A DNA stretch of 64,000 nucleotides from positions 1-64,000 of the forward strand of contig JBDHIF010000011.1 of the NCBI GenBank assembly GCA_039587535.1, written 5' to 3'. Positions 1 to 22,245 of this stretch are shown piece by piece. Under the pieces are notes generated by a model. That model did not search any database, was not told the DNA's origin, and worked only from the letters and a program-made list of their open reading frames with translations. Each line of letters opens with the position of its first letter. The stretch's first letter is position 1. The position numbers and the translations under genes are program-made. This DNA is from Gemmatimonadota bacterium. Lineage in GTDB: Bacteria > Gemmatimonadota > Gemmatimonadetes > Longimicrobiales > Gaopeijiaceae.

Positions 1-37
1 TCTGGTCGAGCATTACGAGGGGCTCAAGACGGTGTGA
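1..37 (+). CDS. 3' end (partial) of a paralogue of the 2TM/RCK channel gene found at 20730-22016; the last 12 codons (..LVEHYEGLKTV*) match
   Basis: nt 1-37 align at ~90% with 21980-22016 including the stop codon; the gene body lies upstream of the window. Confidence 0.5.
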   Translation, partial: LVEHYEGLKTV

Positions 38-262
38 CATTGGGCCCGATTCTGGGCCCATTGGACCCGGCAGCTTCCGACATCCATTCCTGGCAAGAAC
101 GGCAGATCGTGCGCTCCGCCTTGGATTTACACGGTTTCTTGCCGGATTTCGGCTAGGCTGCTGTCGGCCTGATAAGCGTGAGGTCGGTAGTTCAAATCTA
201 CCCAGGCCCACTTTGGGAAACGGAAGCCCCGCTTGGTCTTAGGTGACTGAGCGGGGCTTCTT
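38..262 (+). ncRNA. Copy 1 of a conserved structured 3'-UTR/tRNA-like RNA element (T-arm GGTAG-TTCAAAT-CTACC plus 6-bp acceptor-like helix GGCCTG/CAGGCC), ending in an intrinsic terminator hairpin (224-262)
   Basis: About 90% identical to 22017-22245. The internal stem GGCAAGAA...TTCTTGCC, the T-loop-like hairpin and the AAGCCCCGCTT..AAGCGGGGCTT terminator are visible directly. It is not foldable as a canonical cloverleaf. Confidence 0.5.
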
Positions 263-281
263 CGTGTTCGGTTGGCAGCGG

Positions 282-310
282 ATTCCCGCTGTTCATTCCC
301 GCTGTTCACG
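282..310. repeat. Tandem 13-bp direct repeat TTCCCGCTGTTCA x2, a candidate integrase arm-type site next to the att-like repeat
   Basis: Direct repeat seen in sequence. The same motif recurs at 4617-4646 and related ATTCCCGCCGTT units at 4153-4200. Confidence 0.4.
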
Positions 311-560
311 TTCCGCCCGCCGCCGTGCGCGCCAAGAGTGCGGCCCGGAGGCGCTCCTGATCGGGTCTCTGGTAGCACTCAACAATCGTCTGGGTGTTCT
401 TCCAACCGCCTAGGTCGGCCAACACCTTCAGCGGTTCATCCACCAGATCCGACGCGAACTTGCGGCGCAGTGAGTGCCAGCCCCGACCCTTCTTCGGCTC
501 CAGCCCAGCCTTCTCCTCGGCCCGCTCCCACCAGTCCCGTGCCAGGTGCCGAGAGACGCT
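306..560 (-). pseudogene. Truncated tyrosine recombinase/phage integrase, C-terminal catalytic fragment only (..GWHSLRRKFAS..LGGWKNTQTIVECYQ..)
   Basis: Only the last ~80 aa (the H-x-x-R and catalytic Tyr region) is integrase-like. The upstream part of the ORF is non-homologous and overlaps a comEA-like gene. It is paralogous to the fragment at 4642-4900. Confidence 0.6.
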
Positions 561-573
561 GTCAGACGGCTTC

Positions 574-846
574 TTAGGGGCAGGGAAGACCCTGAGCCTT
601 AATGTCCCGCAGACGGGCCGCCGCGATTCCGCGCACTCGGACGAGTTCGTCCACTGAGGCGAACCGGCGTTGCCTTCTCGGGGTGATGATTTGTCGAGCG
701 CGCTCAGGGCCGATGTGGATGATCCTGTCGAATTGGGCGGCAGACGCCGTGTTGATGTCCACGCACGCTTGAGCACTCCCTAATGAGGGCGAGAGCAGGA
801 CAAGCGTGAGGACTATGAACAGGGCCTCTTGCAGTCTCTGCCTCAT
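574..846 (-). CDS. comEA: ComEA-like helix-hairpin-helix DNA-binding protein with signal peptide
   Basis: ..VDINTASAAQFDRIIHIGPERARQIITPRRQRRFASVDELVRVRGIAAARLRDIKAQ.. matches the ComEA HhH motif pattern (NTAS..L..LPGIG...A..I...R..G.F.S.EEL..V.GIG). Confidence 0.55.
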   Translation of the reverse strand: MRQRLQEALFIVLTLVLLSPSLGSAQACVDINTASAAQFDRIIHIGPERARQIITPRRQRRFASVDELVRVRGIAAARLRDIKAQGLPCP

Positions 847-996
847 CAGCCTTTCCTCGCCCGGGAGAGGGTCACACGCTGCACCATAGACGCTTCCGCC
901 AGTGGAGGGGCCGGCCAACGCCTTCCCGGCGCAGAGCAGTTGGCTTACGCATGCCCAACGTCCTGGAAATCTGCTGCCGCAGCGGACTGGCTACCA

Positions 997-1383
997 TCAC
1001 CGACACCCGTCTCCGCAGGTGAGGATGAGGCCACCAAGGAAGACGAGTACACCCACCGCGGCGAGTCCAAGGGTACGCACCACCGCAACCCCTCTCCACT
1101 CTACGAGCCGAAGGTTCGCAAGAGCGAAGCTTACTGGCCGCGAATCCACAATACCGTGAAGCGTGTCACCTTCGACGCGAGGGGCGTCAAGGACAACCCC
1201 GGGGCCGTCCGAGGGAAGAACTCGAACGCGGTTCGGTAGGATCTGACGACCGTTGTCCAGGGCCACAACAACCGGCTCGTTCTGCCCGGAAGTCGGAGAG
1301 ACCACGGTGACCGGCTCCCAAGTCGAGCAGCCTGTGATGACGACTGTCAGCGCTATGACGCTGAACCGAAGCCTTGCGCACAT
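997..1383 (-). CDS. Hypothetical lipoprotein (lipobox ..VITGC|S) with C-terminal hydrophobic segment
   Basis: Signal peptide plus Cys lipobox after the M at 'MCARLRFSVIALTVVITGCS'. No recognisable family. Confidence 0.35.
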   Translation of the reverse strand: MCARLRFSVIALTVVITGCSTWEPVTVVSPTSGQNEPVVVALDNGRQILPNRVRVLPSDGPGVVLDAPRVEGDTLHGIVDSRPVSFALANLRLVEWRGVAVVRTLGLAAVGVLVFLGGLILTCGDGCR

Positions 1384-1403
1384 CCAGGACCTCCTTCGGA
1401 GTG

Positions 1404-1496
1404 TCCTAACGGATTGGAATTCTGCTGCGCGGCCCGTTAGATGACCAGCGCAGCGTATCAACTAGTCCTTCCGCGACTGCAGCAATTCCTTGTTAG
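1404..1496. repeat. MITE-like ~90-bp repeat (copy R1) with terminal inverted repeats CCTAAC..GGAATTCTGCTGC / GCAGCAATTCC..GTTAGG, 20 nt upstream of the lipoprotein start
   Basis: Sequence family is shared with 2172-2258 and 3012-3102. There is a partial copy at 953-990. Confidence 0.5.
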
Positions 1497-1879
1497 GGGG
1501 CGTGCCGCTTCGCTCTGAAGTTCACCGACTCGAGCCCCTCGAAATCTGCGTCCTGAGTCCATAGCTCAGCGTCGCTCGCCAGAGTGGTCGCATAGATGAC
1601 ACTGTCGGCCAGTGGGAGCTTGAGCGAGGCTCCCAACTCAGCAGCCTCAATTGCCAAGCCTTCATCCAGGTCCACCACTCGTCCCTGACGCATGGCCGCC
1701 GCCGCCTGAAGTGCGTCTTGTCTGCCACGCTGCCGCAGGACATACCGATAGACCTCGAGGACAGTGATTGACGGGACGATGAGGACACTGGCTTCGTTGA
1801 TCACCCGCCCAAACCACTTCGCGTTGGGGCCGTCGGCGAAGAACTCGATCCAGCCTGACGAGTCGATGACGACCTTCAA
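1493..1879 (-). CDS. vapC: Type II toxin VapC (PIN-domain ribonuclease)
   Basis: MKVVIDSSGWIEFF.. has the N-terminal Asp and the distal ..TQDADF acidic motif typical of PIN. There is a 4-nt overlap with the upstream antitoxin. Confidence 0.8.
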   Translation of the reverse strand: MKVVIDSSGWIEFFADGPNAKWFGRVINEASVLIVPSITVLEVYRYVLRQRGRQDALQAAAAMRQGRVVDLDEGLAIEAAELGASLKLPLADSVIYATTLASDAELWTQDADFEGLESVNFRAKRHAP

Positions 1880-2085
1880 AACTCGCGATCCGGCTCTCGT
1901 TCGAAGTTAGGGTCCATTCCCCTGAGGAATCCCCGCATCTCCGAGATCGGGCGGACCGGGACGAGCTCGATGCGGTCCCCGATCGCGAAGGCTTCGACCT
2001 TCTGGCCCGGCTTGATCTTCAACCGCTCACGGACGGCCTTTGGGATCACCACCTGGTATTTGCTGGAGATCGTAACTGTTGACAA
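1876..2085 (-). CDS. vapB: Antitoxin VapB (AbrB/MazE/SpoVT-type swapped-hairpin)
   Basis: MSTVTISSKYQVVIPKAVRERLKIKPGQKV.. is the classic AbrB/MazE-like N-terminus. It is 69 aa and is coupled to vapC. Confidence 0.75.
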   Translation of the reverse strand: MSTVTISSKYQVVIPKAVRERLKIKPGQKVEAFAIGDRIELVPVRPISEMRGFLRGMDPNFEREPDREF

Positions 2086-2171
2086 GACTATTCCTCCATC
2101 GATGTCCTATACGTCTTACGATAGAGGTACGTGGCCGCGGGCTCAAGAGTTCCGGGGTGGGCTCCTACGCC

Positions 2172-2258
2172 CCCTAACGTCTCGGAACTCTGCTGCCGCA
2201 CCGGCGCGTTACCAGACATACCGAACAGCCTACGCGGACAGCAGCAATTCCTTGTTAG
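2172..2258. repeat. MITE-like repeat copy R2 (more divergent core), upstream of vapB
   Basis: It shares the TIRs CCTAACGTCTCGGAACTCTGCTGC ... GCAGCAATTCCTTGTTAGG. Confidence 0.45.
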
Positions 2259-2992
2259 GTGGAACCCGCTTCCGACGCCACGTCGCCAGTCAGAAGCTCC
2301 AAGGCCCGGTCTATCTCTCCCATGGCCTCCTCCGCCATCGCTCTCAGCGCCGGAAGACTCTGCTGGCGGATCCGAAACGCTGTGGCTGCGTCATCGGTCA
2401 TCAGCCGAGTCAGGACCCTCTCGGCGGCCTCGTCGGGAAGGTCAACCGGCTGACAGATCAGTTCGGCCGCGCTGATGTTTGGGCACGCCTCACGAATCTG
2501 AAGAATGAGTTCTTGAGGAATCGCGCCGCGGACCCCCTTCAGGTACTCGTCACGATAAGGCGCCTGCTGGCTCTCCAAGTTCGACAAAGCCGCATATGCA
2601 CGCTGGATCGCTTCCCTCAGCGCGACAGGCGCAATGAGGTTGAGTCTTCCGGTGGAGATGACGTCGTCGTAGGTAGTGCGGTCAGGCTTCCGTGGATTGT
2701 CTCTTCCCATGTTGTACAACGCGACAATCAGCTCATCCGTACCTTCGGCTGGCGATCCGGTCTCGAAGTAACTCGAGGAAGCAGCCGCATACTCGATCGC
2801 TCTCAAGGCCGATCGGTGAACGCCCTCCACAAAGTCACGCGACTCGCGAAGCTCCGCCAACAGGCGGATTTCGTATTCGGAGCCCAGTGCACGGTCTCGT
2901 CGGTCAGCGCTCCAGGAGTCAACGCCAAGGGCGGCGAGCACACCGACCACGATGATGAGGAACTCGGAGGAGAGCCTCTTTGCCTGCCGCAT
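2255..2992 (-). CDS. Membrane-anchored hypothetical protein, paralogue A (N-terminal TM, ~220-aa extracytoplasmic domain)
   Basis: Start corrected to MRQAKRLSSEFLIIVVGVLAALGVDSW. It is paralogous to 3117-3839 (EFLLIFVGIVAALAVDRW). Confidence 0.5.
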   Translation of the reverse strand: MRQAKRLSSEFLIIVVGVLAALGVDSWSADRRDRALGSEYEIRLLAELRESRDFVEGVHRSALRAIEYAAASSSYFETGSPAEGTDELIVALYNMGRDNPRKPDRTTYDDVISTGRLNLIAPVALREAIQRAYAALSNLESQQAPYRDEYLKGVRGAIPQELILQIREACPNISAAELICQPVDLPDEAAERVLTRLMTDDAATAFRIRQQSLPALRAMAEEAMGEIDRALELLTGDVASEAGST

Positions 2993-3011
2993 GTTCCACC
3001 TCTCGGTTCCA

Positions 3012-3102
3012 CCTAACGTCCCGGAATTCTGCTGCACGGCCCGCCTCCGCACCAGCGCAGCGTATCAACTTGCTCTTCCGCGTCTGCAGCAATTCCTGGT
3101 TA
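3012..3102. repeat. MITE-like repeat copy R3, 20 nt upstream of the start of paralogue A
   Basis: CCTAACGTCCCGGAATTCTGCTGC...CCAGCGCAGCGTATCAACTTGCTCTTCCGCG...CTGCAGCAATTCCTGGTTAG. The core is near-identical to R1. Confidence 0.5.
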
Positions 3103-3116
3103 GACCGACTTCTACC

Positions 3117-3839
3117 CTACTGGTCAAGCGCTTCCCGCACCTCGGTCAGCAACCGTTCCGTGCGCTCACTCCATCGCCGAGCGATACCCTCCGCGGCGAT
3201 CGCATATTTTTCTTGGGAGTTGAGCATCCGCGCGATCTCAGGATCTTCGGTCAAGGTGGACCAGAGAGCGGTTGCATCGGGGGAAGAGGCCCGTTCACAG
3301 TCGAACGCCGGAATCTCCCTGGGACACGCGCGTCCTCGATACAGCTCCGCCGGGACGTACGCTTCACGGAAGGCCCTGAAGCCGAAATAGCTCGGATCCT
3401 CCAAGCGTCGCCGACCGTCAGGGAGGTCTTGAGTGAAGTAGGCCACGATGTGACCCCTGAGCGCGTGGTCCGAGATCAACCGGAGGTTTCCCGTCGCCTC
3501 CAAGTCCCTGAAGCTCGCCTCGCGAGTCGGCTGCTCGAAGCGCCAGCCCGCACGGGTCACGGCCACCATCAAGCCAAAATCTGACGGTCTCGTGTCCTCG
3601 CGGATAGCACTTTGGAGCGCTGCGGCGGCTTCCTGCGCGCGGACGGAGGCCGCGAGCATCTCGTCGAAGATGGCGGCGTTGGCCTCCAGGTCGCTCAGTA
3701 CGAAAGCGAGGTACTCCTCTTCAGCGCGCGACTCGTCGAGGCCTTGCACCCATCGATCCACCGCCAGGGCCGCGACAATCCCAACGAAGATAAGGAGGAA
3801 CTCCGCTACGACCCGCCTGCGGTTGGGCGATTCACTCAC
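3117..3839 (-). CDS. Membrane-anchored hypothetical protein, paralogue B
   Basis: N-terminal TM anchor. Paralogous to 2255-2992. No known family recognised. Confidence 0.5.
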   Translation of the reverse strand: MSESPNRRRVVAEFLLIFVGIVAALAVDRWVQGLDESRAEEEYLAFVLSDLEANAAIFDEMLAASVRAQEAAAALQSAIREDTRPSDFGLMVAVTRAGWRFEQPTREASFRDLEATGNLRLISDHALRGHIVAYFTQDLPDGRRRLEDPSYFGFRAFREAYVPAELYRGRACPREIPAFDCERASSPDATALWSTLTEDPEIARMLNSQEKYAIAAEGIARRWSERTERLLTEVREALDQ

Positions 3840-4152
3840 GAAAGCTCCTTCAGAAGTCGGTGTAACTCTACTTCTACGGACCCGCCGTAAGCCCTTACGG
3901 CGTCTTACGCGGATCCGAGTATGCGCCGCACTTTCCAGCCTGGCAACGCGAACTCCCGGAAGTGTGCGCTGGGGTCCTCAGCATACGCCGGTCCGCGTAA
4001 GTCCCTCGACGCACGAAGACCCCGACGGCGCACCGCCAAGAGGAACACTTTAAAAGTCTCTTTTCGATCCCCTCCCGAACGCTCGCGGAGGAGTCCCACC
4101 TCCTCCTATCGAAGGGGGCCCCTTGGGGGGGTCGTCGTCTCGGGCGGAGAGC

Positions 4153-4200
4153 GATTCCCGCTCTAATTCCCGCCGTTCCCTCCGTTATTCCCGCCGTTCG
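4153..4200. repeat. Cluster of ATTCCCGC(C/T)GTT-like direct repeats (candidate arm-type sites) immediately upstream of RNA-element copy 2
   Basis: gcgATTCCCGCTCTaATTCCCGCCGTTccctccgttATTCCCGCCGTTcgg. Confidence 0.35.
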
Positions 4201-4228
4201 GAGGCGGCATCTTCCGGCACCGTGAATT

Positions 4229-4388
4229 GGCAAGAGTGGCAGATCGTGCAGCCCATCAATGGTTTAGACGATTTCTTGCCGTGATTCGCGCGAAGCGCGA
4301 GGCGCCTGATAAGCGTGAGGTCGGTAGTTCAAATCTACCCAGGCCCACTGAGGCTCCTCGGTCGAGTGACCGAGGAGCCTCTTTCGTT
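4229..4388 (+). ncRNA. Copy 2 of the structured tRNA-like RNA element (diverged 5' half, identical 3' T-arm/acceptor end) with its own terminator hairpin (4351-4388)
   Basis: GGCAAGAG..TTCTTGCC stem, conserved GGCAGATCGTGC, CCTGATAAGCGTGAGGTCGGTAGTTCAAATCTACCCAGGCCCAC, then GAGGCTCCTCGG..CCGAGGAGCCTC-TTTCGTTC. Confidence 0.45.
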
Positions 4389-4523
4389 CAGGTTGGTCGA
4401 GAACTAACGACCTCACGGTCCCACTCAGCTGACTCGGTAGTTCACCCGGAGCGCGCGGTCAGCGCGCGGAGGGGAGCGAGGGCCGGTCAGGTACTGGCGA
4501 CAGCGCCAGCCCGGGAAGCCCGC

Positions 4524-4597
4524 AGCTCAAATCTACCCAGGCCCACTTTTTGGAAGTAGATGCCCCGCTTGGTCTTAGGTGACTGAGCGGGGCTTTT
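4524..4597 (+). repeat. Partial copy 3 of the RNA element (3' ~22 nt att-like core GCTCAAATCTACCCAGGCCCAC) plus a terminator hairpin identical to that of copy 1
   Basis: 4524-4650 is near-identical to 196-312 (core, terminator, 13-bp direct repeats). Confidence 0.5.
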
Positions 4598-4616
4598 GCG
4601 TGTCCGGGTGGCAACG

Positions 4617-4646
4617 GATTCCCGCTGTTCATTCCCGCTGTTCACC
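4617..4646. repeat. Tandem TTCCCGCTGTTCA x2 direct repeat (second copy of the 282-310 arm-type-like repeat)
   Basis: Identical motif and position relative to the integrase fragment. Confidence 0.4.
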
Positions 4647-4900
4647 CTCCACCTGCCGCCTCTCGTGCCGATAGTGCGGCCCTAGGGCGCTCCTGATCGG
4701 GTGTGTGATAGCACTCGACGATCGTCTGGGTGTTCTTCCAGCCACCAAGGTCGGCCGACACCTTCGACGGTTCATCCACCAGATTCGACGCGAACTTTCG
4801 TCGCAGGGAGTGCCAGCCCCCACCCCGCTTCGGCTCCACGCCAGCCGGGTCCTCGGCCTTGCGCCACCAGTCCCTGACCAGGTGCCTGGAACAAGGCCTA
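4642..4900 (-). pseudogene. Second truncated tyrosine integrase C-terminal fragment (..GGGWHSLRRKFASNLVDEPSKVSADLGGWKNTQTIVECYHTPDQE..)
   Basis: Paralogous to 306-560. The upstream part of the 277-aa ORF is low-complexity and non-homologous. Confidence 0.6.
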
Positions 4901-5637
4901 GTAGATGGGGCGCCGGGGGGATGTAGGAGTCCCCGATTCCAGGCGCGTGTCTCGCTACGGGCCTCCAGGGCCTCGTAAGCTCCCTCGGTGAGAGGCGTCA
5001 CACGCTCGAGACCAAGTTTGTCACTCTCAGTGCGCCAGCGGACGCTTCTCGCCCTCAAGTCCGCGTCCATTTCGGTCGTTGAGGCCGAAGGCGGCTGCTT
5101 TGTCGACTGGCGCGCAAGCTTCGAGGTGGCTGAGGGGCCGGCTGATGAGGCCTGCGGAATGATGAAGGGTGTGTATGAGGAAGGCATGTCTGCCCTGCGG
5201 GAGGCCCACGCCGGATGGGTACACCGGTCGACGTATGCGGGCGGGGCGGTAGGTACTGGATAGGTGGTGTCCGGTGCCCTCCCGTTCCCTTTGGCATGCA
5301 CCCCGACCCGCGTCTCACACATCTGTCCGCCACGTCTCACTCGGCTCGATCTGAAGGGCTTGGCGCGTTGGGATTGGACACGACAACCCGGGCACGGCCA
5401 GGACGACCGGTAGCCCAATGCCAATCCCAGCAACCGCGGCGTGAATCGGTCCGGACCCCGCTGTCTGACGGCCAAGCTGCGTCAGCAGCCATGCCGTTAT
5501 GGGGATTCCCAGGAAGGCACCCGTGCCCAGCTGAGCGATGGAGCGGCGACCACAGGTAAAGGCCAGACTGGAGTTGCGCGCTCCCACCACGGTTCGAACA
5601 CCGATCTCTCGGGTCCGCTCCGAAACCGAGAAGGAAG

Positions 5638-5669
5638 GGGTCTAGACGAGTTCTTGCCGTGATCCGCGA
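5638..5669 (+). repeat. Fragment of the RNA element 5' half (GGTCTAGACGAGTTCTTGCCGTGATCCGCG versus copy 2 GGTTTAGACGATTTCTTGCCGTGATTCGCG) upstream of amtB
   Basis: 28/30 nt match to 4261-4290, so this is an integration scar. Confidence 0.4.
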
Positions 5670-5775
5670 TATTACCGCTCGTTGATCAAGTGGACATAAT
5701 CGACGGGGCGCCGTAAGATCTTCCGCTCACGTATCAGCATGACTCCACCTCAACCCCGAGAAGGAACTGCTGCCC

Positions 5776-7077
5776 ATGGGCCTTGTTTCCTTTCTGGCCG
5801 CGGTGCAAGCCGAAGCGCCGATCCAGGATGCTCCCGCCTGGGACGCACTTAGCACGCTTTGGATCCTGATCGCGGCGATCCTTGTCTTCTTCATGCAGGC
5901 GGGGTTCAGCGTACTCGAGGCCGGACTGGTGCGAGCGAAGAACGCCGGGAATGTGCTGATGAAGAATCTCCTCGATTTTTCGTCGGCCACGCTGGGCTAC
6001 TTCGTCTTCGGGTACGCGATCATGTACGGCTCGGAGGGGCTTCTGTTCGGGACCGAGGGGTGGTTCCTCGCGGGTGTCGAGTCTCCGGTCGATGGTTTGC
6101 CTGTCGAAGTCTTTTGGCTCTTCCAAGCCATGTTCGCGGGTGCCGCTGCGACGATCGTCGCGGGTGCGGTCGCGGAGAGGATGAAGTTCACGTCCTACCT
6201 GGCCTACTCGTTCATCCTCTCGGCTTTCATTTACCCGATCGTCGGTCACTGGGTGTGGGGTGGCGGTTGGCTCGCCGGCCTCGGCTTCCACGATTTCGCC
6301 GGCTCGACGGTGGTGCATGCTGTGGGGGGCGTAACCGGGCTCGTGGCCGCATGGGTACTGGGTCCACGTTTCGGGAAGTTCAATAAGGACGGCTCGCCCA
6401 ATGCGATCGGGGGGCATAGCCTCCCGTTGGCCTCGCTCGGCGTCTTCATCCTCTGGTTTGGCTGGTATGGCTTCAACGCCGGATCGACCCTCGGAATGGG
6501 TGAGCCCGACGTCGTCGCCCGGATCGCCATCAACACGACGCTAGCTCCTGCCATCGGCGCGGTAATGGGCATGATCACGAGTTGGGTTCGCTATGGGAAG
6601 CCGGACCTTCTGTTGGCCCTGAACGGAGCTCTCGCAGGGCTGGTAGGGATTACCGCAGGTTGCGCCGCCGTGACTCCGGGAGCGGCGCTTTGGATCGGAG
6701 CGATCGCCGGGGTACTCTGTGTCTACGGAATCGCGTGGATCGACGCGATTCGAGTGGACGATCCGGTCGGGGCCGTGGCGGTACACGGGATCTGCGGCAT
6801 CTGGGGCACGCTGGCTGTCGGCCTCTGGGGCCGGGAGACGTTCGGCGCGACCGGCGACGGCCTCTTCATGGGCGGGGGCTTCGGCGCGTTGGGCATTCAG
6901 ATGCTGGGTGTGATCGCGTGCCTCGGGTTCACGGCGATCGCGATGTGGATCGTGTTCACGGCGATCGACTCGGTCCTCGGCCTGCGCGTCTCGCACGAGA
7001 CGGAGCTGCGCGGCCTCGACATCGATGAGCACGGGATCGAGTCGTACGCCGGGTTCCAGATCTTCACCACCGACTGA
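5776..7077 (+). CDS. amtB: Ammonium transporter (Amt/MEP family)
   Basis: 433 aa. It has 11-12 TM helices and an Amt signature region (..FFMQAGFSVLEAGLVRAKN..), followed by a P-II gene. Confidence 0.9.
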   Translation: MGLVSFLAAVQAEAPIQDAPAWDALSTLWILIAAILVFFMQAGFSVLEAGLVRAKNAGNVLMKNLLDFSSATLGYFVFGYAIMYGSEGLLFGTEGWFLAGVESPVDGLPVEVFWLFQAMFAGAAATIVAGAVAERMKFTSYLAYSFILSAFIYPIVGHWVWGGGWLAGLGFHDFAGSTVVHAVGGVTGLVAAWVLGPRFGKFNKDGSPNAIGGHSLPLASLGVFILWFGWYGFNAGSTLGMGEPDVVARIAINTTLAPAIGAVMGMITSWVRYGKPDLLLALNGALAGLVGITAGCAAVTPGAALWIGAIAGVLCVYGIAWIDAIRVDDPVGAVAVHGICGIWGTLAVGLWGRETFGATGDGLFMGGGFGALGIQMLGVIACLGFTAIAMWIVFTAIDSVLGLRVSHETELRGLDIDEHGIESYAGFQIFTTD

Positions 7078-7091
7078 GGCGAGTTCTTGCC

Positions 7092-7427
7092 ATGAAGATG
7101 ATCATCGCGGTGATCAAGGCGGAGCAGCTACCTGCCGTGAAACAGGCGCTGTTTGACGCCGAGATCAGACACATGACGGCCACATCCGTCCTGGGAACTG
7201 CGCCGCGTACAGAGCAGCAGATGTACCGTGGTGTGAAGAAGGAGGTTTCGCTCTTCAAGCGGGTTCGCCTGGAGGTGGCGGTCAATGACGCCAACGTGGA
7301 GCGCGCCATCGAGGCCATATCCCGCGGATGTATGGAGTCGGGCGGCGCCGGGAAGATCTTCGTGACCGAGCTGCACGACGTCGTCACTGTGTGGACCGGC
7401 GAGCGCGGTTCGCGAGCACTGTACTGA
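7092..7427 (+). CDS. glnK: Nitrogen regulatory protein P-II (GlnK-type, divergent T-loop)
   Basis: MKMIIAVIKAEQLPAVKQAL.. is a P-II fold of 111 aa. The T-loop reads GTAPRTEQQMYRGVKKE (Tyr retained, RQKGH replaced). Confidence 0.8.
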   Translation: MKMIIAVIKAEQLPAVKQALFDAEIRHMTATSVLGTAPRTEQQMYRGVKKEVSLFKRVRLEVAVNDANVERAIEAISRGCMESGGAGKIFVTELHDVVTVWTGERGSRALY

Positions 7428-7434
7428 GGGCGTC

Positions 7435-8871
7435 ATGTCGAAACGACCTACCAGCCCTCGCGACGTCGTCGGGATGATCAAGGATCGCGACATTGCATTT
7501 CTCGATCTGAAGTTCGTCGACCTGTTCGGAACGCTGCAGCACCTGACGTTGCCCGCCGAGCTGGTCGACGAGGCGCTCTTCCGGAATGGGATGGCGTTCG
7601 ACGGTTCCTCGGTGCGCGGATTCACCCGGATCAACCAGAGCGACATGCTCCTGATCCCGGATGCATCGTCGGTTTTCCAGGACCCATTCTTCGACGACCC
7701 TGCGTTGTCGGTCTTCTGCGACATCGTCGATCCGAACGGACGTTACACCTTCTCCCGTGATCCCCGTTCGGTCGCTCGGCGGGCCGAGCAGCTCGTCCGT
7801 TCGCTGGGGATTGCGGACACGGCGTTCTTCGGTCCGGAGATCGAGTTCTTCATCTTCGACGACGTGCGCTTCGACCAGGCCACGCAGCACGGCTATTACT
7901 TCCTGAACAGCGCGGCGGCGTCGTGGGCCACGGGTGAGACGGGAGAAGGTTCGAACCTCGGCCACCGAGCGGCGCAGAAGGGCGCCTACTTCTCGGCGCC
8001 GCCCGTGGACCAATACAACAATCTTCGATCGAAGATCTCCCATGTGCTGCGGAGCGTTGGATTACAGCCAGAACTGCACCATCACGAGGTCGGGGCGGCG
8101 GGCCAGTCCGAGATCGGGTTCCGTTTTGGACCACTCCTCCATCAGGCGGACGCGTCGATCAAATACAAGTACGTCGTCAAGAACGTCGTAAACCGCTACG
8201 GGAAGACCGCCACCTTCATGCCCAAGCCGCTTCTCCAGGAGAACGGCTCCGGAATGCACCACAACATCAGTCTGGCGAAGGATGGTAAGAACGTCTTCTA
8301 CGAACCCGGGACCTATGGAGACTTGAGCGCCCTCGCGGTGCACTTCATCGGTGGGTTGCTCGAGCACGCAGCGGCGCTCTGCGCGATCTGCTGTCCGACG
8401 ACGAACTCCTATCGGCGCCTCGTGCCGGGATACGAGGCACCGATGAACCTTCTTTACTCTGGTCGAAATCGAAGCGCCTGTGTGCGCATACCAACCATGA
8501 CCGGGGGACCCAAGTCGAAGCGGATCGAGTTCCGCACACCGGACCCCTCGTGCAACCCGTATCTCAGCTTCGCCGCCATCATGTGTGCCGGTATCGACGG
8601 CATTCGGCGGAAGATCGTGCCGGCGGATCCCGTCGATGAGGACATCTACGAGCTCGCGGCATCTGAGAGCGGTCGAGAAATCGAGCGGACACCGGGCACG
8701 CTCGACGAGGCGATCAGTGCGCTCGAGCAGGATCACGACTTCCTCGTTCAGGACGGGGTCTTCACACCCGACTTCGTCGAGACCTGGGTCGATCTGAAGA
8801 GAACGAAGGAAATCGACTTTGTCCGGCTTCGCCCGCACCCGGGCGAGTTCTCCCTTTACTTCAACGCGTAG
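7435..8871 (+). CDS. glnA: Glutamine synthetase type I
   Basis: 478 aa with the GS beta-grasp and catalytic domain motifs. It sits in an amtB-glnK-glnA arrangement. Confidence 0.9.
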   Translation: MSKRPTSPRDVVGMIKDRDIAFLDLKFVDLFGTLQHLTLPAELVDEALFRNGMAFDGSSVRGFTRINQSDMLLIPDASSVFQDPFFDDPALSVFCDIVDPNGRYTFSRDPRSVARRAEQLVRSLGIADTAFFGPEIEFFIFDDVRFDQATQHGYYFLNSAAASWATGETGEGSNLGHRAAQKGAYFSAPPVDQYNNLRSKISHVLRSVGLQPELHHHEVGAAGQSEIGFRFGPLLHQADASIKYKYVVKNVVNRYGKTATFMPKPLLQENGSGMHHNISLAKDGKNVFYEPGTYGDLSALAVHFIGGLLEHAAALCAICCPTTNSYRRLVPGYEAPMNLLYSGRNRSACVRIPTMTGGPKSKRIEFRTPDPSCNPYLSFAAIMCAGIDGIRRKIVPADPVDEDIYELAASESGREIERTPGTLDEAISALEQDHDFLVQDGVFTPDFVETWVDLKRTKEIDFVRLRPHPGEFSLYFNA

Positions 8872-10628: not shown

Positions 10629-12497
10629 GTGGCGCTCTCTTTGATACAGGATCGGTCGATCCGAGTCCGCGTCTTCGTCGTCCTCGCCGCCGTCGCGGTT
10701 CTATCCATTGGTGTGGTGGCGGCGGTGTCCTACCGCCTGGGATTGGCCACCCTCGAGCAGCAGGCGTTCGACCGCCTCACCTCGGTGCGTGAGTTGAAGG
10801 GGCGTCAGGTCGAGGGATATTTCCGCACGATCCGAGACCAGGTCGTCACGCACGCCGAGAATCGTATGACCATCGACGCGGTGCGTGAGTTCACGGCCGC
10901 CGCCACGACCCTGGAAGCAGAGCTGGGGGTGCCCGACGCGAGCGAGCGCGAGCTCTCTCTGCGGCTCTACTACCAGGATGAGTTTCTCCCCCGTCTCGGG
11001 GAGCGCGCTGCAGATGCCGGTGCTCTGTCCGCCTACTGGCCCGAGGACGCTCTGGCGCGCTCACTCCAGTACCTGTTCATCAGCGCCAGCCCGTTCGCCG
11101 TCGGTTCGAAGCAACTTCTGGACGATTCGGGTGCCGGGGTCCGGTACGATGACGTTCACGGGCGCTATCACCCCCTTTTCCGGAGTTTTCTCGAGCGGTT
11201 CGGCTACTATGACATCTTCCTCGTGGACGCGGCGACCGACCGAATCGTGTACTCGGTGTTCAAGGAGATCGACTTCGGCACGTCCCTCGAACGGGGTCCG
11301 CATCGAAGCTCGAACCTCGCGGCAGCATACCGAGCGGCACGAGATTCGGGGGTAGACTCATTCACCCACCTGGAGGACTTCGAACCGTATGCGCCATCGT
11401 ATGGTGCTCAAGCTTCCTTCATCGCATCTCCGATCTTCGACGGGGACGAAATCCTGGGCATTCTCGTCTTCCAGCTCCCGCTGGACCGTATCAACGAGTT
11501 GATGACGAGCGAGCGCGCCTGGCGGGACGTGGGGTTGGGGGCGTCGGGCGAAACGTACGTGGTCGGTTCGGACCAGAGGCTTCGAACCGAATCTCGCTTT
11601 CTCATAGAAGATCGCGAGGAGTACCTGGGTGCGATCGAGAGGGGTGGCCTCGACGAGCGTATCGTGCGGTCGATCGAGGCGCAGGGCAGCGCCATCGGGC
11701 TTCAACCGGTCCAGACAAACGGGGTGGAACGAGCGCTTGGGGGTGAAACGGGAACCGACCGCTTCCCCGACTATCGGGGCGCCGAGGTGTTCTCCAGCTA
11801 CCGACCTCTCACGATCCCAGATCTCGAGTGGGTGCTCATGAGCGAGATCGATTCGAGCGAAGCCCTCGCGCCGCTCGTTGCGCAGCGGAACCGTATGCTC
11901 GTGGCGCTGGCCATATTCCTGCCGCTGATCGGCGGACTGGCACTGTGGTTCGCCGGGAATCTCGTTCGCCCCATCGAGGCCCTGTCTCGGAGGGCCGAGG
12001 AACTCGCCAGGGGAGAGCTCGATCACGAGGTCGACATCTCGCGTGGCGACGAGATCGGTGAGCTCGCGCGCAGCTTCGAAGCGATGCGCGTGGCGTTGCG
12101 CGATCAAATCGATCGACAGAATCGTTCGATCGACGCCTTGTCCACGCCCCTGATCCCGATCCATGACGACGTCGTGGTCATGCCGCTCGTGGGTGAGCTC
12201 GACGAGGCGCGATGCGAGAGGGTTCGAGAGTCGCTCACGGCTCAGCTCCACAGCAATGGAGCGCGGTCGGTGATCCTGGATCTTACTGGAGTCTTGCGAC
12301 TGGATGACGATGTGGCGCGCGGGCTGATTCGGATTGCGCGAACTGCCCGTCTCGTGGGCGCGCAGGCCATCGTGTCGGGCGTCCGACCCGAACTCGCTGC
12401 TCAGCTGGCGGACGGCGACGTCGATACACAGGGCATCGTGACGGTGCGCACATTGAGAGACGCGATCGAGAGCGCCACGATGCACCGTGACGGGTGA
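10629..12497 (+). CDS. Membrane sensor with a periplasmic Cache-like domain, HAMP and C-terminal STAS (RsbR-like) domain
   Basis: TM1 and a ~380-aa periplasmic region are followed by TM2, a HAMP helix (..IEALSRRAEELARGELDHEVDISRGDEIGELARSFEAMRVAL..) and STAS (..VVVMPLVGELDEARCERV..ILDLTGV..VSGVRPELA..). Confidence 0.65.
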   Translation: MALSLIQDRSIRVRVFVVLAAVAVLSIGVVAAVSYRLGLATLEQQAFDRLTSVRELKGRQVEGYFRTIRDQVVTHAENRMTIDAVREFTAAATTLEAELGVPDASERELSLRLYYQDEFLPRLGERAADAGALSAYWPEDALARSLQYLFISASPFAVGSKQLLDDSGAGVRYDDVHGRYHPLFRSFLERFGYYDIFLVDAATDRIVYSVFKEIDFGTSLERGPHRSSNLAAAYRAARDSGVDSFTHLEDFEPYAPSYGAQASFIASPIFDGDEILGILVFQLPLDRINELMTSERAWRDVGLGASGETYVVGSDQRLRTESRFLIEDREEYLGAIERGGLDERIVRSIEAQGSAIGLQPVQTNGVERALGGETGTDRFPDYRGAEVFSSYRPLTIPDLEWVLMSEIDSSEALAPLVAQRNRMLVALAIFLPLIGGLALWFAGNLVRPIEALSRRAEELARGELDHEVDISRGDEIGELARSFEAMRVALRDQIDRQNRSIDALSTPLIPIHDDVVVMPLVGELDEARCERVRESLTAQLHSNGARSVILDLTGVLRLDDDVARGLIRIARTARLVGAQAIVSGVRPELAAQLADGDVDTQGIVTVRTLRDAIESATMHRDG

Positions 12498-12559
12498 GGG
12501 ACGGGCCGGCGCTGCGTTGGGGATTCGCGACAGACTGACTTAACACTTCGTAGAGGCGC

Positions 12560-13444: not shown

Positions 13445-13458
13445 GTGTGGCGTAGGCG

Positions 13459-20733: not shown

Positions 20734-22016
20734 GTTTTTGGCGGACCTCCGAGACGCCACCGGTGTCGACCGGCGCCAGACTGAGAATCGTCGGCGTCGT
20801 CCTCGTCTTTGTCCTCGTTGCAGGGTCCTTCCTCGCCGGAGTCGAAACCTCGGGCCTCGAAGCGACGGAGGCGGGCTCGATTCTCGCGTGGATCTACTAC
20901 GCAGCGGGGCTGTTCGTCTTCGGTGGATTGGATCTCGGCACTCCGATCGGTGGGCCAATCGCTGCGCGAGGGATGCTGTGGGTTGCGTACTTCTTGGCGC
21001 CCGCGATCACGACGACCACGGTTGTGGAAGCAGTCATTAGGCTCGTCCGCCCGGCTCGGTCGCCGGCAGCATCGGTCACGGGCCACCTGATCCTGGTCGG
21101 GGCCGGCCCGATCGGCCTGGCGTACCTCAAGGCCGTTCGTCGGGTCGATCCTGATGTCCCAGTGCTCATCGTGGATCGCTTCGAGGGTGAGGTGACACTT
21201 GCCGAGGTCGAGCGCTTGGGTGGGGTTCATCCCGTTTCCGTGGATCCACGGCGGCCGGCGGCCCTCGAAGTCGTGGGGTTGGAGCGTGCCGATCGGATGG
21301 TCGTGGTGACGGACGACGACCTCACCAATCTCGAGGTGGCATGGGCGGCGCGGGCAGCTCGGGCGGACCTCCCCATCGCCGTGCATGTGGCCGACCTCAC
21401 CCTGCTTCGGCCCGTCAATCGGCTCGTGCGGGACCAAGCCCGAGCCGCGGATCCGGGCGGAGCACCGCCCCTGGTGTTCAACACCCACAGGATCGGAGCA
21501 CTGCACCTGTACGAGCGCTTCCTCCACCCGCATTTCGAGGGTACACGGTACGAGGACGTTGTCGTGCTCGGCGGATTCGGGCGCTTCTCGCAGACCATCC
21601 TGGAGCTCTTGAGGGTGACGGCTGCGGATGAAATCGAGCGATTGGTCGTGGTCGACCCCGATGCATCGAGGAAGGTACGTCAATTCGCGGTGGACGTACC
21701 CCTGGAAGTCCTGAGTTTCACGACGGTGGACGGCGACCTCGAAGACCCCGGGACGTGGGCACGGGTCGACGATGAGGTCGCGGGGCTCGAGGCCACTCCG
21801 GTGTATCTGCTCGCCTCGTCCGACGAGGTCGTGAACTTCCGGGCTGCCATGCTCCTGCGGGCCCGCTCGAGGGAGCCGCGGGTCTTCGCTCGGTGCTTCC
21901 ACCGCGGCCAGTTTGCAGAGTCACTCGCGGAGCAGCGTGATTTCGAACTGCTCGCGTTCGAGGACGTTCTTCGCGATGCCCTGGTCGAACACTACGAGGG
22001 GCTCAAGACGGTGTGA
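20730..22016 (+). CDS. 2TM pore-loop ion channel with two C-terminal RCK/TrkA-N (NAD-binding Rossmann) domains and a non-canonical filter (..FVFGGLDLG..)
   Basis: TM1, a pore-helix-like AWIYYAAGLFVFGG and TM2 are followed by two GxGxxG Rossmann domains (LILVGAGPIGLAY.., VVVLGGFGRFS..). The start overlaps the IMPase stop (ATGA). The 3' end is duplicated at window start. Confidence 0.6.
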   Translation: MSFWRTSETPPVSTGARLRIVGVVLVFVLVAGSFLAGVETSGLEATEAGSILAWIYYAAGLFVFGGLDLGTPIGGPIAARGMLWVAYFLAPAITTTTVVEAVIRLVRPARSPAASVTGHLILVGAGPIGLAYLKAVRRVDPDVPVLIVDRFEGEVTLAEVERLGGVHPVSVDPRRPAALEVVGLERADRMVVVTDDDLTNLEVAWAARAARADLPIAVHVADLTLLRPVNRLVRDQARAADPGGAPPLVFNTHRIGALHLYERFLHPHFEGTRYEDVVVLGGFGRFSQTILELLRVTAADEIERLVVVDPDASRKVRQFAVDVPLEVLSFTTVDGDLEDPGTWARVDDEVAGLEATPVYLLASSDEVVNFRAAMLLRARSREPRVFARCFHRGQFAESLAEQRDFELLAFEDVLRDALVEHYEGLKTV

Positions 22017-22245
22017 CATTGGGCCGGTTCTTGGGCCCACTCGACCCGGTAGCTTCCGACGTCACATTCCGGCAAGAACGGCAGATCGTGCGCCCCGCCT
22101 TGGGTTTACACGGTTTCTTGCCGGAATTCGGCTAAGCTGCTATCGGCCTGATGAGCGTGAGGTCGGTAGTTCAAATCTACCCAGGCCCACTTTTGGAAGT
22201 GATGGCCCCGCTTGGCTTTGGATGGCCAAGCGGGGCTTCTTCGTT
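22017..22245 (+). ncRNA. Copy 4 (best-context copy) of the structured tRNA-like 3'-UTR RNA element with terminator (22204-22244), immediately downstream of the channel gene
   Basis: Same architecture as copy 1 with ~90% identity over ~225 nt. Confidence 0.5.

What the first reader, a model, noticed from the sequence alone, without database searches (positions are those of the whole stretch)
1..5700. Graveyard of tandem integrative elements bounded by repeats of a structured RNA 3' end
Within 5.7 kb there are two paralogous integrase fragments that keep only the catalytic C-terminus (306-560, 4642-4900). Each is followed in the same relative position by the att-like core GCTCAAATCTACCCAGGCCCAC, a terminator and a 2x TTCCCGCTGTTCA arm-type repeat, so 196-312 is essentially identical to 4524-4650. 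A further full element copy lies at 4229-4388 with ATTCCCGCCGTT repeats at 4153-4200, and a 30-nt scar lies at 5638-5669. This is the signature of repeated site-specific integration into one RNA gene followed by decay. The cargo between the repeats (lipoprotein, vapBC, comEA-like, two paralogous membrane proteins) is accessory.
Basis: seen in the sequence. Interest (0 to 1): 0.6.

Follow-up and report, generated by a model that had tools for sequence, protein, structure and literature searches.

The report
Decayed tRNA-Ile islands holding integron cassettes
This 5.7 kb stretch holds the worn-down remains of mobile elements that insert into the isoleucine tRNA gene, and the "cargo" of one of them is a short array of integron gene cassettes; both are well-known kinds of bacterial junk, so the finding is real but ordinary.

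Summary

**What the repeat is.** The repeated "structured RNA 3' end" is the 3' half of tRNA-Ile(GAU), from the anticodon stem to the discriminator base. The window has four copies: 167-212, 4304-4349, 4526-4547 and 22146-22191. No intact tRNA lies in the window or in the 5.3 kb upstream.

**The integrases.** The two fragments are truncated genes of a roughly 390-aa tyrosine integrase family. Relatives of this family sit beside real tRNA-Ile or tRNA-Ala genes.

**The attachment site.** The copy at 4153-4349 is an attR-type junction, not a whole element. It carries the element's P arm: ATTCCCGC arm-type sites, a conserved 52-nt hairpin, and then the core. The same ATTCCCGC sites follow cores 1 and 3, so element 1 spans 167-4349. 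Element 2 spans about 4526-5668.

- The "cargo" at 953-3866 is an integron cassette cluster without its own integrase (a CALIN). It has three complete attC sites and one half site, from an attC family abundant in Gemmatimonadota arrays that lie next to IntI genes.
- A fifth att copy lies at 21933-22244.
- Two arm-site types are present.

**Verdict.** A new member of known kinds, of low to moderate interest.

The parts
1..37 (+). 3' end fragment (…LVEHYEGLKTV*) of a TrkA_N-type ORF, paralogous to the end of the intact ORF 20439-22016. About 48 nt more of it lies upstream of the window.
   Evidence: tblastn 96% over 27 aa; Pfam TrkA_N for the intact copy.
38..166 (+). P arm of a type-2 element: two TTGGGCC arm-type repeats (about 41-62), the motif CCCGGCAGCTTCCGAC, hairpin H (92-143), and a spacer.
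   Evidence: 87-92% identical to 22017-22145. The same architecture is seen in metagenome loci L134, L152 and L160.
167..212 (+). Core copy 1: tRNA-Ile(GAU) 3' half, from the anticodon stem through the discriminator base.
   Evidence: 100% identical to 4304-4349; 93% identical to positions 31-74 of an ARAGORN-called tRNA-Ile in L003.
223..260 (+). Hairpin after core 1 (terminator-like with a weak T tail), the start of the P' arm of element 1.
   Evidence: Inverted repeat I16; homologous to the terminator at 4562-4593.
282..306 (+). P' arm-type sites of element 1: 2 x ATTCCCGCTGTT.
   Evidence: six exact copies in the window, all beside cores, plus one 1-mismatch match elsewhere (5941-5952); 0.43 expected by chance.
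306..605 (-). Integrase fragment A, equivalent to residues about 295-389 of a 389-aa tyrosine integrase. The first 294 codons are lost.
   Evidence: Pfam PF00589 C-terminal part only; tblastn with P0024.
574..918 (-). ComEA-like (HHH_3) cassette gene, the last cassette. It has no attC of its own, and its last ~10 codons overlap the integrase remnant in another reading frame, which marks a deletion scar.
   Evidence: Pfam HHH_3; the ORF and the integrase match overlap at 574-605. Window 590-694 is deleted in the near-identical contig L001.
953..985 (-). Half attC site: only the L'-R' arm, with R' = GTTGGGC.
   Evidence: Member of repeat family D3. The model R1 did not call it as a full site.
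997..1383 (-). Cassette ORF of 128 aa, a putative lipoprotein with no Pfam family.
   Evidence: gene call in L001.
1404..1499 (-). attC site 1: R'' CCCTAAC … R' GTTAGGA on the minus strand. The vapC stop codon lies inside R''.
   Evidence: 115 bits.
1493..2085 (-). vapBC toxin-antitoxin cassette (PIN toxin plus a MazE/AbrB-type antitoxin).
   Evidence: Pfam. Homologues 87-90% (VapB) and 69-71% (VapC) identical lie inside Gemmatimonadota cassette arrays L050 and L072.
2172..2260 (-). attC site 2 (ACCTAAC … GTTAGGG).
   Evidence: 87 bits.
2255..2992 (-). Cassette ORF, a membrane protein with no Pfam family, paralogous to 3117-3839.
   Evidence: The family recurs in many Gemmatimonadota arrays.
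3011..3105 (-). attC site 3 (GTCTAAC … GTTAGGT).
   Evidence: 112 bits.
3117..3866 (-). First cassette: a 240-aa membrane protein (3117-3839). The cassette starts at G|TTACAC (3866/3865), and that start is complementary to the cassette's own R'' region.
   Evidence: Inverted repeat I21, 3099-3113 / 3852-3866, 93% complementary; a 54% identical homologue lies in array L042.
4153..4198 (+). P-arm arm-type sites of element 1: ATTCCCGCTCTA, then ATTCCCGCCGTT x 2.
4229..4280 (+). Hairpin H of element 1's P arm (GGCAAGAG … GCAGATCGTGC … TTCTTGCC).
   Evidence: conserved in 16 distinct family members.
4304..4349 (+). Core copy 2 (tRNA-Ile 3' half), the attR-type end of element 1.
4350..4381 (+). Intrinsic terminator after core 2. 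It is unrelated to the hairpins that follow cores 1 and 3.
4434..4547 (+). Core copy 3, split into TCGGTAGTTCA (4434-4444), an 81-nt insert with two small hairpins (4445-4525), and CTCAAATCTACCCAGGCCCAC plus one following T (4526-4547).
   Evidence: Read from the sequence. The left junction is shared with L247; core match.
4562..4642 (+). P' arm of element 2: terminator 4562-4593 and 2 x ATTCCCGCTGTT (4618-4642).
   Evidence: 87% identical to the P' arm of element 1.
4642..5067 (-). Integrase fragment D, equivalent to residues 247-389. The box I arginine and the whole N-terminal half are missing.
5315..5590 (-). Fragment of an FtsX-type permease C-terminus (weak match).
   Evidence: Pfam PF02687, E = 0.026. 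FtsX/MacB genes lie downstream of the orthologous Rce1 gene in L248.
5639..5668 (+). Remnant of the 3' half of hairpin H: the decayed P arm of element 2, with no core after it.
   Evidence: 90% identical to 4261-4290.
21933..22244 (+). No integrase follows it.

Best explanation
Window 1-5700 is a decayed integration hot spot for tyrosine-integrase elements that target tRNA-Ile(GAU).

**How these elements work.** Their attP consists of, in order:
- 2-3 arm-type sites;
- a conserved 52-nt hairpin (H);
- a spacer of about 25 nt;
- a copy of the tRNA's 3' half, starting in the anticodon stem;
- a hairpin/terminator;
- more arm-type sites;
- the integrase gene, reading toward the core.

Integration by crossover in the tRNA-derived core leaves one core at each end of the element.

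**What is present here.**
- Element 1 runs from core 1 (167-212) to core 2 (4304-4349).
- Element 2 runs from the split core 3 (4434-4547) to the hairpin scar at 5639-5668.
- The P arm to the left of core 1, and the copy at 21933-22244, belong to a second element type with different arm sites.
- Both integrases are dead, having lost 294 and 246 N-terminal codons.
- No intact tRNA-Ile remains at the locus.

**The interior of element 1.** It is not ordinary cargo. It is a cluster of five integron gene cassettes on the minus strand, with three complete attC sites and one half site. No integron integrase is nearby, so it is a CALIN. A deletion fused it to the integrase remnant.

**Shown versus inferred.**
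- Shown: the repeats, the truncations, the homology to tRNA-Ile, the attC family and its link to IntI elsewhere.
- Inferred: the order of events, which repeats delimited which insertion, and the binding role of the arm sites and of H.
For: - **Integrase truncation.**
- **Relatives next to real tRNAs.** Integrase relatives lie next to ARAGORN-called tRNA-Ile(GAT) in L003 and L004 and tRNA-Ala in L006.
- **Identity of the core.** The core matches tRNA-Ile positions 30/31-74 at 93% identity.
- **Intact attP.** L007 carries an intact integrase with the same attP layout: arm sites, H, tRNA-Ile half, terminator, integrase.
- **Arm sites.** ATTCCCGC arm sites occur on both the P arm (4153-4198) and the P' arms (282-306, 4618-4642), and at only one other place in 64 kb, a one-mismatch match at 5941-5952.
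- **Swappable core.** The same P arm and H precede 3' halves of tRNA-Ile, tRNA-Pro and tRNA-Arg in metagenome loci.
- **attC sites in the window.** Three intergenic repeats of 89-96 nt have the form RYYYAAC…GTTRRRY. Each follows a minus-strand ORF, and for the vapC cassette the TAA stop codon can be seen to lie inside R''.
- **attC family elsewhere.** An exact-pattern scan found 79 loci, almost all in Gemmatimonadota MAGs. The covariance model found 279 co-oriented sites in them, spaced 0.6-1.5 kb apart.
- **Link to IntI.** IntI homologues lie upstream of such arrays in L038, L047, L057, L059 and L079.
- **Cassette genes.** The window's cassette proteins recur inside those arrays.
- **No IntI here.** None was found in the window.
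- **Variable locus.** Related genomes share the NmrA-Rce1 flank but have different DNA after it. L247 holds an inverted, decayed att copy there.
Against: - No intact tRNA-Ile gene lies at either end of the array, nor anywhere in the window or the 5.3 kb upstream. The defining "regenerated target" of a tDNA island is therefore missing.
- No clean empty site was found in a relative.
- Cores 2 and 3 are separated by 176 nt of unrelated DNA, and core 3 is interrupted. Simple serial integration does not explain the layout.
- Elements 1 and 2 could be an old in-situ duplication (85% identity) rather than two separate arrivals.
- The attC assignment rests on my own covariance model and on an IntI1 sequence recalled from memory, not on IntegronFinder.
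- GC content in the region (0.60-0.65) is only slightly below the window mean of 0.654.
Confidence: 0.85

Rival explanations
1. The repeated unit (hairpin H plus a tRNA-like 3' domain with its own terminator) is a functional, multi-copy structured RNA gene with a tRNA-like end, analogous to tmRNA or Y-RNA-like molecules. On this view the integrases simply target it.
For: Copies A and C fold better than shuffled controls (z = -3.3 and -4.6). They carry a 5' GGGCCNG that could pair with the 3' CAGGCCC. One helix shows a C-G to U-A change between copies A and C (read from the sequences). Copy C has its own terminator and no integrase after it.
Against: ARAGORN and Rfam find nothing, even at E <= 1. 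The anticodon stem does not pair in copies A and C. The same hairpin H and arm sites precede 3' halves of four different tRNAs and sit beside an intact integrase in L007, which is what an attP P arm does. Across 16 family members only a 9-bp stem is supported, with a single covarying pair, while the loop motif GCAGATCGTGC is invariant; that pattern suits a protein-binding site better.
Confidence: 0.04
2. Only one integration happened. Elements 1 and 2, with their cores, P' arms and integrase fragments, arose by duplication and rearrangement of a single island inside the chromosome, not by repeated site-specific integration.
For: The two P'-arm-plus-integrase segments are co-oriented, only 4.3 kb apart and 85% identical over 300 nt, with the same arm sites. 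The locus shows other signs of homologous rearrangement: a duplicated unit made of 45 nt plus the TrkA fragment, an inverted copy in L247, and a 105-bp deletion polymorphism.
Against: The two integrase fragments differ at dS about 0.65 with dN/dS 0.38, which is a lot for paralogues born in place. They are truncated at different points (residues 295 and 247). The sequences upstream of cores 1 and 3 are unrelated. Two element types with different arm sites are present, so at least two arrivals are needed anyway.
Confidence: 0.12
3. The cassette cluster was never cargo of the tRNA-Ile element. An integron integrase encoded elsewhere in the genome inserted it later into the decaying island, at a non-att site.
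For: CALINs are proposed to arise partly by off-target cassette insertion (Cury et al. 2016, as summarised in PMC8618304; a preprint on insertion outside att sites was listed). The cluster lies exactly between the integrase remnant and the P arm, and it replaces the integrase N-terminus.
Against: The downstream end is not a site-specific junction. The last cassette lacks its attC, and its ORF reads into integrase DNA, which points to a deletion. The 287 nt upstream of the first cassette match nothing. The data cannot separate "cargo from the start" from "inserted later".
Confidence: 0.3

Closest known systems
Genomic islands and integrative elements in tRNA genes, including tandem arrays (Islander framework; anticodon-centred attP class of Williams 2002)
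   Same: There is a tyrosine integrase next to the att site. Direct repeats of the tRNA's 3' fragment mark the element ends. The identity block starts in the anticodon stem and runs to the 3' end. Several elements lie side by side. Islander lists 125 tandems of two or more islands and 2083 anticodon-centred sites (PMC4383910).
   Different: No regenerated intact tRNA is present. Both integrases are truncated. One core is interrupted by an 81-nt insert. One junction is attP-like and joins two element types.
[quoted passage not shown] 2016, IntegronFinder)
   Same: At least two co-oriented attC sites are separated by single promoterless-looking ORFs or a toxin-antitoxin pair. No intI lies nearby. 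The same attC family is found next to intI in other genomes. Integrons are already reported in Gemmatimonadota (PMC8618304).
   Different: It sits inside the remnant of a tRNA-targeting island and is fused by deletion to that island's dead integrase. It was not checked with IntegronFinder's own attC model.
Chromosomal integrons with intI in the same orientation as the cassettes (Treponema denticola type; recalled from memory)
   Same: In the five related Gemmatimonadota loci that have IntI, the gene lies upstream of the array and on the same strand as it.
   Different: This applies to the relatives only. The window has no intI.
Lambda-type attP with arm-type integrase sites (established knowledge)
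   Same: Short direct repeats lie on both sides of the core and are absent elsewhere in the window apart from one 1-mismatch match at 5941-5952. The integrase gene is adjacent and reads toward the core.
   Different: Binding has not been tested. A conserved 52-nt hairpin lies between the P-arm sites and the core, and I know of no counterpart in described attP sites.

Membership tests
tDNA-targeting integrative element / genomic island | Tyrosine integrase gene adjacent to the att site | tested here: met
   PF00589 matches at 306-605(-) and 4642-5067(-), each 90-95 nt from a core. Both are truncated.
tDNA-targeting integrative element / genomic island | Direct repeats of a tRNA 3' fragment delimiting the element | tested here: met
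   Cores at 167-212, 4304-4349 and 4526-4547, all on the + strand; 93% identical to tRNA-Ile positions 31-74.
tDNA-targeting integrative element / genomic island | Intact (regenerated) target tRNA gene at one end | tested here: not met
   ARAGORN finds no tRNA in the 64-kb window or in L001/L002, which cover 5.3 kb upstream. Rfam finds none either.
tDNA-targeting integrative element / genomic island | Integrase relatives found beside the same tRNA species in other genomes | tested here: met
   L003 and L004 have tRNA-Ile(GAT) 35-50 nt from the integrase stop codon. L007 has an intact integrase beside a tRNA-Ile half.
tDNA-targeting integrative element / genomic island | Empty site in a related genome | tested here: inconclusive
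   L247 and L248 share the NmrA-Rce1 flank at 86-89% nt identity but carry other DNA downstream. L247 has an inverted, decayed att copy. No amtB junction was seen.
Integron cassette array / CALIN | Two or more attC sites: imperfect inverted repeats with R'' RYYYAAC and R' GTTRRRY, 55-140 nt long | tested here: met
   1404-1499, 2172-2260 and 3011-3105 (89-96 nt), with AAC…GTT invariant and paired arms.
Integron cassette array / CALIN | Sites co-oriented, each following one ORF or a toxin-antitoxin pair | tested here: met
   All are on the minus strand, spaced 762-845 nt apart. The vapC stop codon lies inside R'', and the next ORFs start within about 20-30 nt after R'.
Integron cassette array / CALIN | Same attC family associated with an integron integrase (IntI with its extra domain) elsewhere | tested here: met
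   L038 encodes a protein 41% identical to IntI1 over 318 aa, including the IntI-specific insertion. Partial IntI genes lie in L047, L057, L059 and L079, all upstream of co-oriented attC arrays.
Integron cassette array / CALIN | intI within a few kb (a complete integron) versus absent (a CALIN) | tested here: not met
   No IntI-like match in the window with IntI1 or with the L038 IntI. It is therefore filed as a CALIN, not a complete integron.
Integron cassette array / CALIN | Recognition by IntegronFinder's curated attC covariance model | not testable with these tools
   That model is not available here. My own model R1 was used instead.
tmRNA or other described structured RNA as the repeated target | Match to a curated RNA family, or a tmRNA call with G3:U70 and a tag ORF | tested here: not met
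   No ARAGORN tmRNA. No Rfam match at the gathering threshold in 64 kb or at E <= 1 in 1-8000. The candidate acceptor pair 3:70 would be G-C.
Integron integrase (IntI) as the identity of the two fragments | Similarity to IntI | tested here: not met
   tblastn with IntI1 and with the L038 IntI does not hit 306-605 or 4642-5067. Both fragments group with a distinct family of about 390 aa.

The most novel reading that the evidence does not exclude
The integrase family seen here may have an unusual, possibly programmed, break point.

- In L003/L004 (tRNA-Ile) and L006 (tRNA-Ala), the P arm with hairpin H is fused, in the sense orientation, to the integrase at codon about 240.
- The remaining 140-aa ORF there stays intact and evolves under purifying selection (dN/dS 0.2 at dS 0.94).
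- At least eight 50%-identity cluster representatives start at the same position.
- Window fragment D breaks 3-4 codons away from it.

The short C-terminal Int' could therefore be either a functional product, such as an inhibitor of incoming relatives or an excision regulator, or the recurrent outcome of site-specific recombination between the element's P arm and its own integrase gene. Together with the swappable tRNA core behind a constant arm-sites-plus-hairpin module, this would define a previously undescribed attP architecture and a self-inactivation mechanism.
Probability: 0.12. Interest if true: 0.55.

Novelty: new member of a known kind. Interest (0 to 1): 0.28.

Why it matters
Mostly it matters as correct annotation.

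- **Annotation.** The region should be labelled as tRNA-Ile-derived att remnants, two integrase pseudogenes and a CALIN. It should not be labelled as a novel RNA or as an active island.
- **Integron cassettes in Gemmatimonadota.** The cassettes, including a vapBC pair and a recurrent membrane-protein family, end up inside other mobile-element wrecks. This is one way cassette clusters become separated from their integrase.
- **A definable attP layout.** The integrase family has a conserved and easily searched attP layout: arm sites, a 52-nt hairpin, then the 3' half of any of several tRNAs. That layout could help island-mapping tools and integrase bioprospecting.

Tried and rejected
- **tmRNA or novel tRNA-like RNA.** ARAGORN and Rfam were negative. 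A cloverleaf is impossible because the tRNA's 5' half is absent. The folds of copies A and C are stable, but the upstream part turned out to be the element's P arm.
- **Integrase fragments as IntI remnants.** Rejected.
- **attC-like repeats as a genome-wide REP or MITE family.** Rejected. Only three sites occur in 64 kb, and elsewhere they form co-oriented arrays next to IntI.
- **IntI or attI remnant in 3867-4152.** Nothing was found.
- **Empty-site search through Rce1-like neighbour homologues.** No clean empty site; the locus is variable.
- **Inversion between attR and a pseudo-site in the integrase gene, to explain the P-arm-integrase fusion in L003.** Not supported. A normal attR copy is still present 7.5 kb away, and no integrase N-terminal half lies within 10 kb.
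- **A nested element targeting the integrase gene.** Also unsupported, for the same reason.
- **Covariation in hairpin H.** Only one covarying pair was found.
- **The hairpin search pattern.** It also returned many chance or unrelated matches, including 53 with a 58-nt span, mostly in gut and viral contigs. These were set aside.
- **First literature search** (Gemmatimonadetes + attC + integron). It returned nothing; a reworded search did return results.

Full report
**1. The observation**

- A 46-nt block is identical at 167-212 and 4304-4349. Its last 21-22 nt recur at 4526-4547.
- Allowing up to 3 mismatches, TTCAAATCTACCCAGGCCCAC occurs four times in the 64-kb window and never in shuffled sequence. 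The fourth copy, at 22170, was not in the finding.
- ORFs 306-776(-) and 4642-5475(-) match only the C-terminal part of the Pfam phage-integrase model.
- ATTCCCGCYGTT occurs six times exactly, always beside a core and always on the + strand, plus once with one mismatch at 5941-5952. 0.43 matches are expected by chance.
- Hairpins follow the cores, and two of them pass a terminator scan.
- The 30-nt scar at 5639-5668 is 90% identical to 4261-4290.
- "Essentially identical" is too strong: 191-312 versus 4526-4650 is 87% identical.

**2. What the repeated RNA 3' end is**

- ARAGORN finds no tRNA or tmRNA in the window. Rfam finds nothing either.
- The block reads as the 3' half of tRNA-Ile(GAU): anticodon loop CTGATAA, 3' anticodon stem GCGTG, variable loop AGGTC, T arm GGTAG-TTCAAAT-CTACC, acceptor strand CAGGCCC, and discriminator A.
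- This was tested through the integrase. Homologues of the fragment were traced to their contigs. In L003 and L004 the gene ends 35-50 nt from an ARAGORN-called tRNA-Ile(GAT). In L006 it ends next to tRNA-Ala(TGC).
- The window's block is 93% identical to positions 30/31-74 of that tRNA-Ile.
- An identity block running from the anticodon stem to the 3' end is the anticodon-centred class of tRNA attachment sites. That class is the commoner of the two in the Islander survey (PMC4383910).

**3. The integrases**

- A profile search of 1.8 billion representative proteins gave 10,885 hits. Many are full-length proteins of 380-400 aa whose catalytic domain lies at residues about 219-386 (sequences).
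- Against the 389-aa P0024, fragment D covers residues 247-382 and fragment A covers 295-373.
- Both fragments lack the first catalytic arginine and the whole N-terminal half (alignment).

**4. The attachment site architecture**

L007, which carries the intact P0024 gene, has this layout:

- two ATTCCCGCTATTT repeats;
- a 52-nt hairpin (GGCAAGAA-CG-GCAGATCGTGC … TTCTTGCC, called H here);
- a 25-nt spacer;
- the tRNA-Ile 3' half;
- a hairpin;
- the integrase gene, reading toward the core.

There is no full tRNA there, so this is an attP-type arrangement.

The window's 4153-4349 has the same left side: three ATTCCCGC sites, H at 4229-4280, and then the core. The ATTCCCGCTGTT pairs after cores 1 and 3 form the right side. 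Because the P arm at 4153-4198 and the P' arm at 282-306 use the same arm-site motif, they belong to one element, spanning 167-4349.

A metagenome scan for H found the same module 20-30 nt upstream of the 3' halves of tRNA-Ile (L117, L130), tRNA-Pro (L096) and tRNA-Arg-CCT (L129, L176). The module consists of the arm sites, the motif CCGGCAGMTTCCGRCATC, and H. The family thus keeps the P arm and swaps the core.

Two arm-site types exist:

- TTCCCGC: window copy B, both window P' arms, L007 and others.
- TTGGGCC: the P arm left of core 1, the copy at 22 kb, and L134, L152 and L160.

Copy 1 is therefore an attP-like junction between a type-2 P arm and a type-1 P' arm. That is the arrangement expected where two elements abut.

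Only the 9-bp outer stem of H is supported across 16 distinct sequences. It has one covarying pair (A-U in 10, G-C in 6), while GCAGATCGTGC never varies (counts). I therefore read H as a recombination-site module, probably protein-bound, rather than as an RNA.

**5. The cargo**

The intergenic repeats that the repeat finder reported as D3, D5 and D6 are imperfect inverted repeats of 89-96 nt with CTAAC…GTTAG ends. Each lies directly after a minus-strand ORF, and the vapC stop codon sits inside the CCTAAC. This is the anatomy of integron attC sites.

- A covariance model built from the three sites finds only those three in the 64-kb window.
- An exact-pattern scan of one genome per species returned 79 loci, almost all in Gemmatimonadota MAGs.
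- The model finds 279 sites in those loci. They are co-oriented within each locus and spaced 0.6-1.5 kb apart.
- Five loci also carry IntI homologues upstream of the arrays and on the same strand. One is full-length, 41% identical to IntI1 over 318 aa, and contains the IntI-specific insertion.
- The window's VapB, VapC and membrane-protein cassettes have homologues inside those arrays.
- No IntI is present in the window.

Region 953-3866 is therefore a CALIN, with five cassettes, three complete attC sites and one half site. Integrons in Gemmatimonadota and the CALIN concept are both already described (PMC8618304; PMC4889954, listed).

The last cassette (ComEA-like, 574-918) has no attC. Its ORF runs about 30 nt into integrase DNA in another reading frame, so a deletion joined the array to fragment A. 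The near-identical contig L001 lacks window 590-694, a strain-level deletion across this very junction.

**6. Surroundings and history**

- Two near-identical MAG contigs extend the window leftward. No tRNA occurs in the 5.3 kb upstream.
- Window 1-37 is the end of a TrkA_N-type ORF fragment. The same ORF end plus a type-2 P arm, core and hairpin recurs at 21933-22244 behind an intact gene.
- The genes to the left of that copy include a TCAD9-kinase-NUDIX protein, which is typical island cargo.
- Upstream of window position 1, a 45-nt piece of the P arm is duplicated around the ORF fragment.
- Core 3 is split: TCGGTAGTTCA, then an 81-nt insert, then CTCAAATC…. The left junction is shared with L247. 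In L247 the type-2 P arm, H and core lie inverted relative to the conserved NmrA-Rce1 flank.
- L248 shares the flank but has other genes downstream.
- The locus is thus a variable hot spot, reshaped by deletion, duplication and inversion as well as by integration. I found no clean empty site.
- Base composition is only mildly atypical: GC 0.60-0.65 against a window mean of 0.654.

**7. An unexplained side observation**

- In L003, L004 and L006 the P arm and H lie on the integrase's coding strand and are fused to the gene at codon about 240, with the same junction sequence in all three.
- The remaining ORFs there are intact. L003 and L006 are 74% identical, with dN/dS 0.20 at dS 0.94.
- Several 50%-identity cluster representatives begin at the same profile position.
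- Window fragment D breaks 3-4 codons away, but without H.
- A normal attR is still present 7.5 kb from the L003 fusion, and no N-terminal half lies within 10 kb. My inversion model and my nested-integration model therefore both fail.
- This may be a recombination hot spot or a functional short protein. It is the basis of the "novel case".

**8. Verdict**

New details are:

- the identity of the RNA, tRNA-Ile(GAU);
- the absence of any live target gene;
- the attP architecture with a conserved hairpin and swappable tRNA core;
- the two arm-site types;
- the integron nature of the cargo;
- the fifth copy at 22 kb.

Noticed in passing
window 21933-22244: A fifth att copy lies 22 kb from the finding, directly behind an intact TrkA_N gene and with no integrase after it. 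It holds a type-2 P arm, hairpin H, a tRNA-Ile half with anticodon loop CTGATGA, and a terminator-like hairpin.
   Followed up: partly
window 17198-19786: An 862-aa ORF combines a TCAD9 domain, an APH/choline-kinase-like kinase and NUDIX. This is a conflict-system type protein, next to an inositol-monophosphatase-like ORF, and probably cargo of the island that ends at 22191.
   Followed up: no
window 590-694 versus L001 7497-7499: A 105-bp deletion polymorphism separates near-identical MAG contigs (99.8% identical elsewhere). It removes the junction between the ComEA-like cassette and integrase fragment A.
   Followed up: partly
L003 5920-6501, L004 5920-6501, L006 7860-8417: The P arm and hairpin H are fused in the sense orientation to the integrase at codon about 240, with the same junction in all three loci. 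The remaining 138-166 aa ORFs are intact and show dN/dS 0.20. Many cluster representatives start at the same position.
   Followed up: partly
L096 4775-4900; L129 4269-4400; L176 171-300; L117; L130: The same arm-site-plus-hairpin module precedes the 3' halves of tRNA-Pro, tRNA-Arg(CCT) and tRNA-Ile. Target specificity in this element family therefore changes by swapping the core behind a constant P arm.
   Followed up: partly
window 4445-4525 and L247 5945-6000: An 81-nt insert with two small hairpins interrupts the T loop of core 3. Its left junction (GGTAGTTCA|CYCGGAGC) is shared with a related genome. It could be a small mobile insert or old flanking DNA.
   Followed up: partly
window 4368-4417: A degenerate inverted copy of the tRNA half lies just after the terminator of core 2 (CGTGAGGTCGTTAGTTC matches 16 of 17 nt, 64% over 36 nt). 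It may be a trace of an inversion.
   Followed up: no
window 3904-4001: A 21-nt inverted repeat (86% complementary, arms 56 nt apart) lies in the unassigned 287-nt stretch between the first cassette and the P arm. It does not resemble the attC family and matches nothing in the fetched loci.
   Followed up: partly
L038 3788-4897; L047, L057, L059, L079: In Gemmatimonadota integrons, intI lies upstream of the cassette array and on the same strand as it. This differs from the divergent arrangement of classical integrons.
   Followed up: partly
metagenome and viral loci (e.g. L087, L093, L207-L211): The hairpin search pattern also hit 53 sites with an identical 58-nt span, many in human-gut and viral contigs. 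This is evidently another conserved sequence family unrelated to the window.
   Followed up: no
window 10629-16729: A partner-switching signalling cluster lies between glnA and the 22-kb island: HAMP-STAS, protoglobin-STAS, STAS, and two HATPase/SpoIIE proteins.
   Followed up: no
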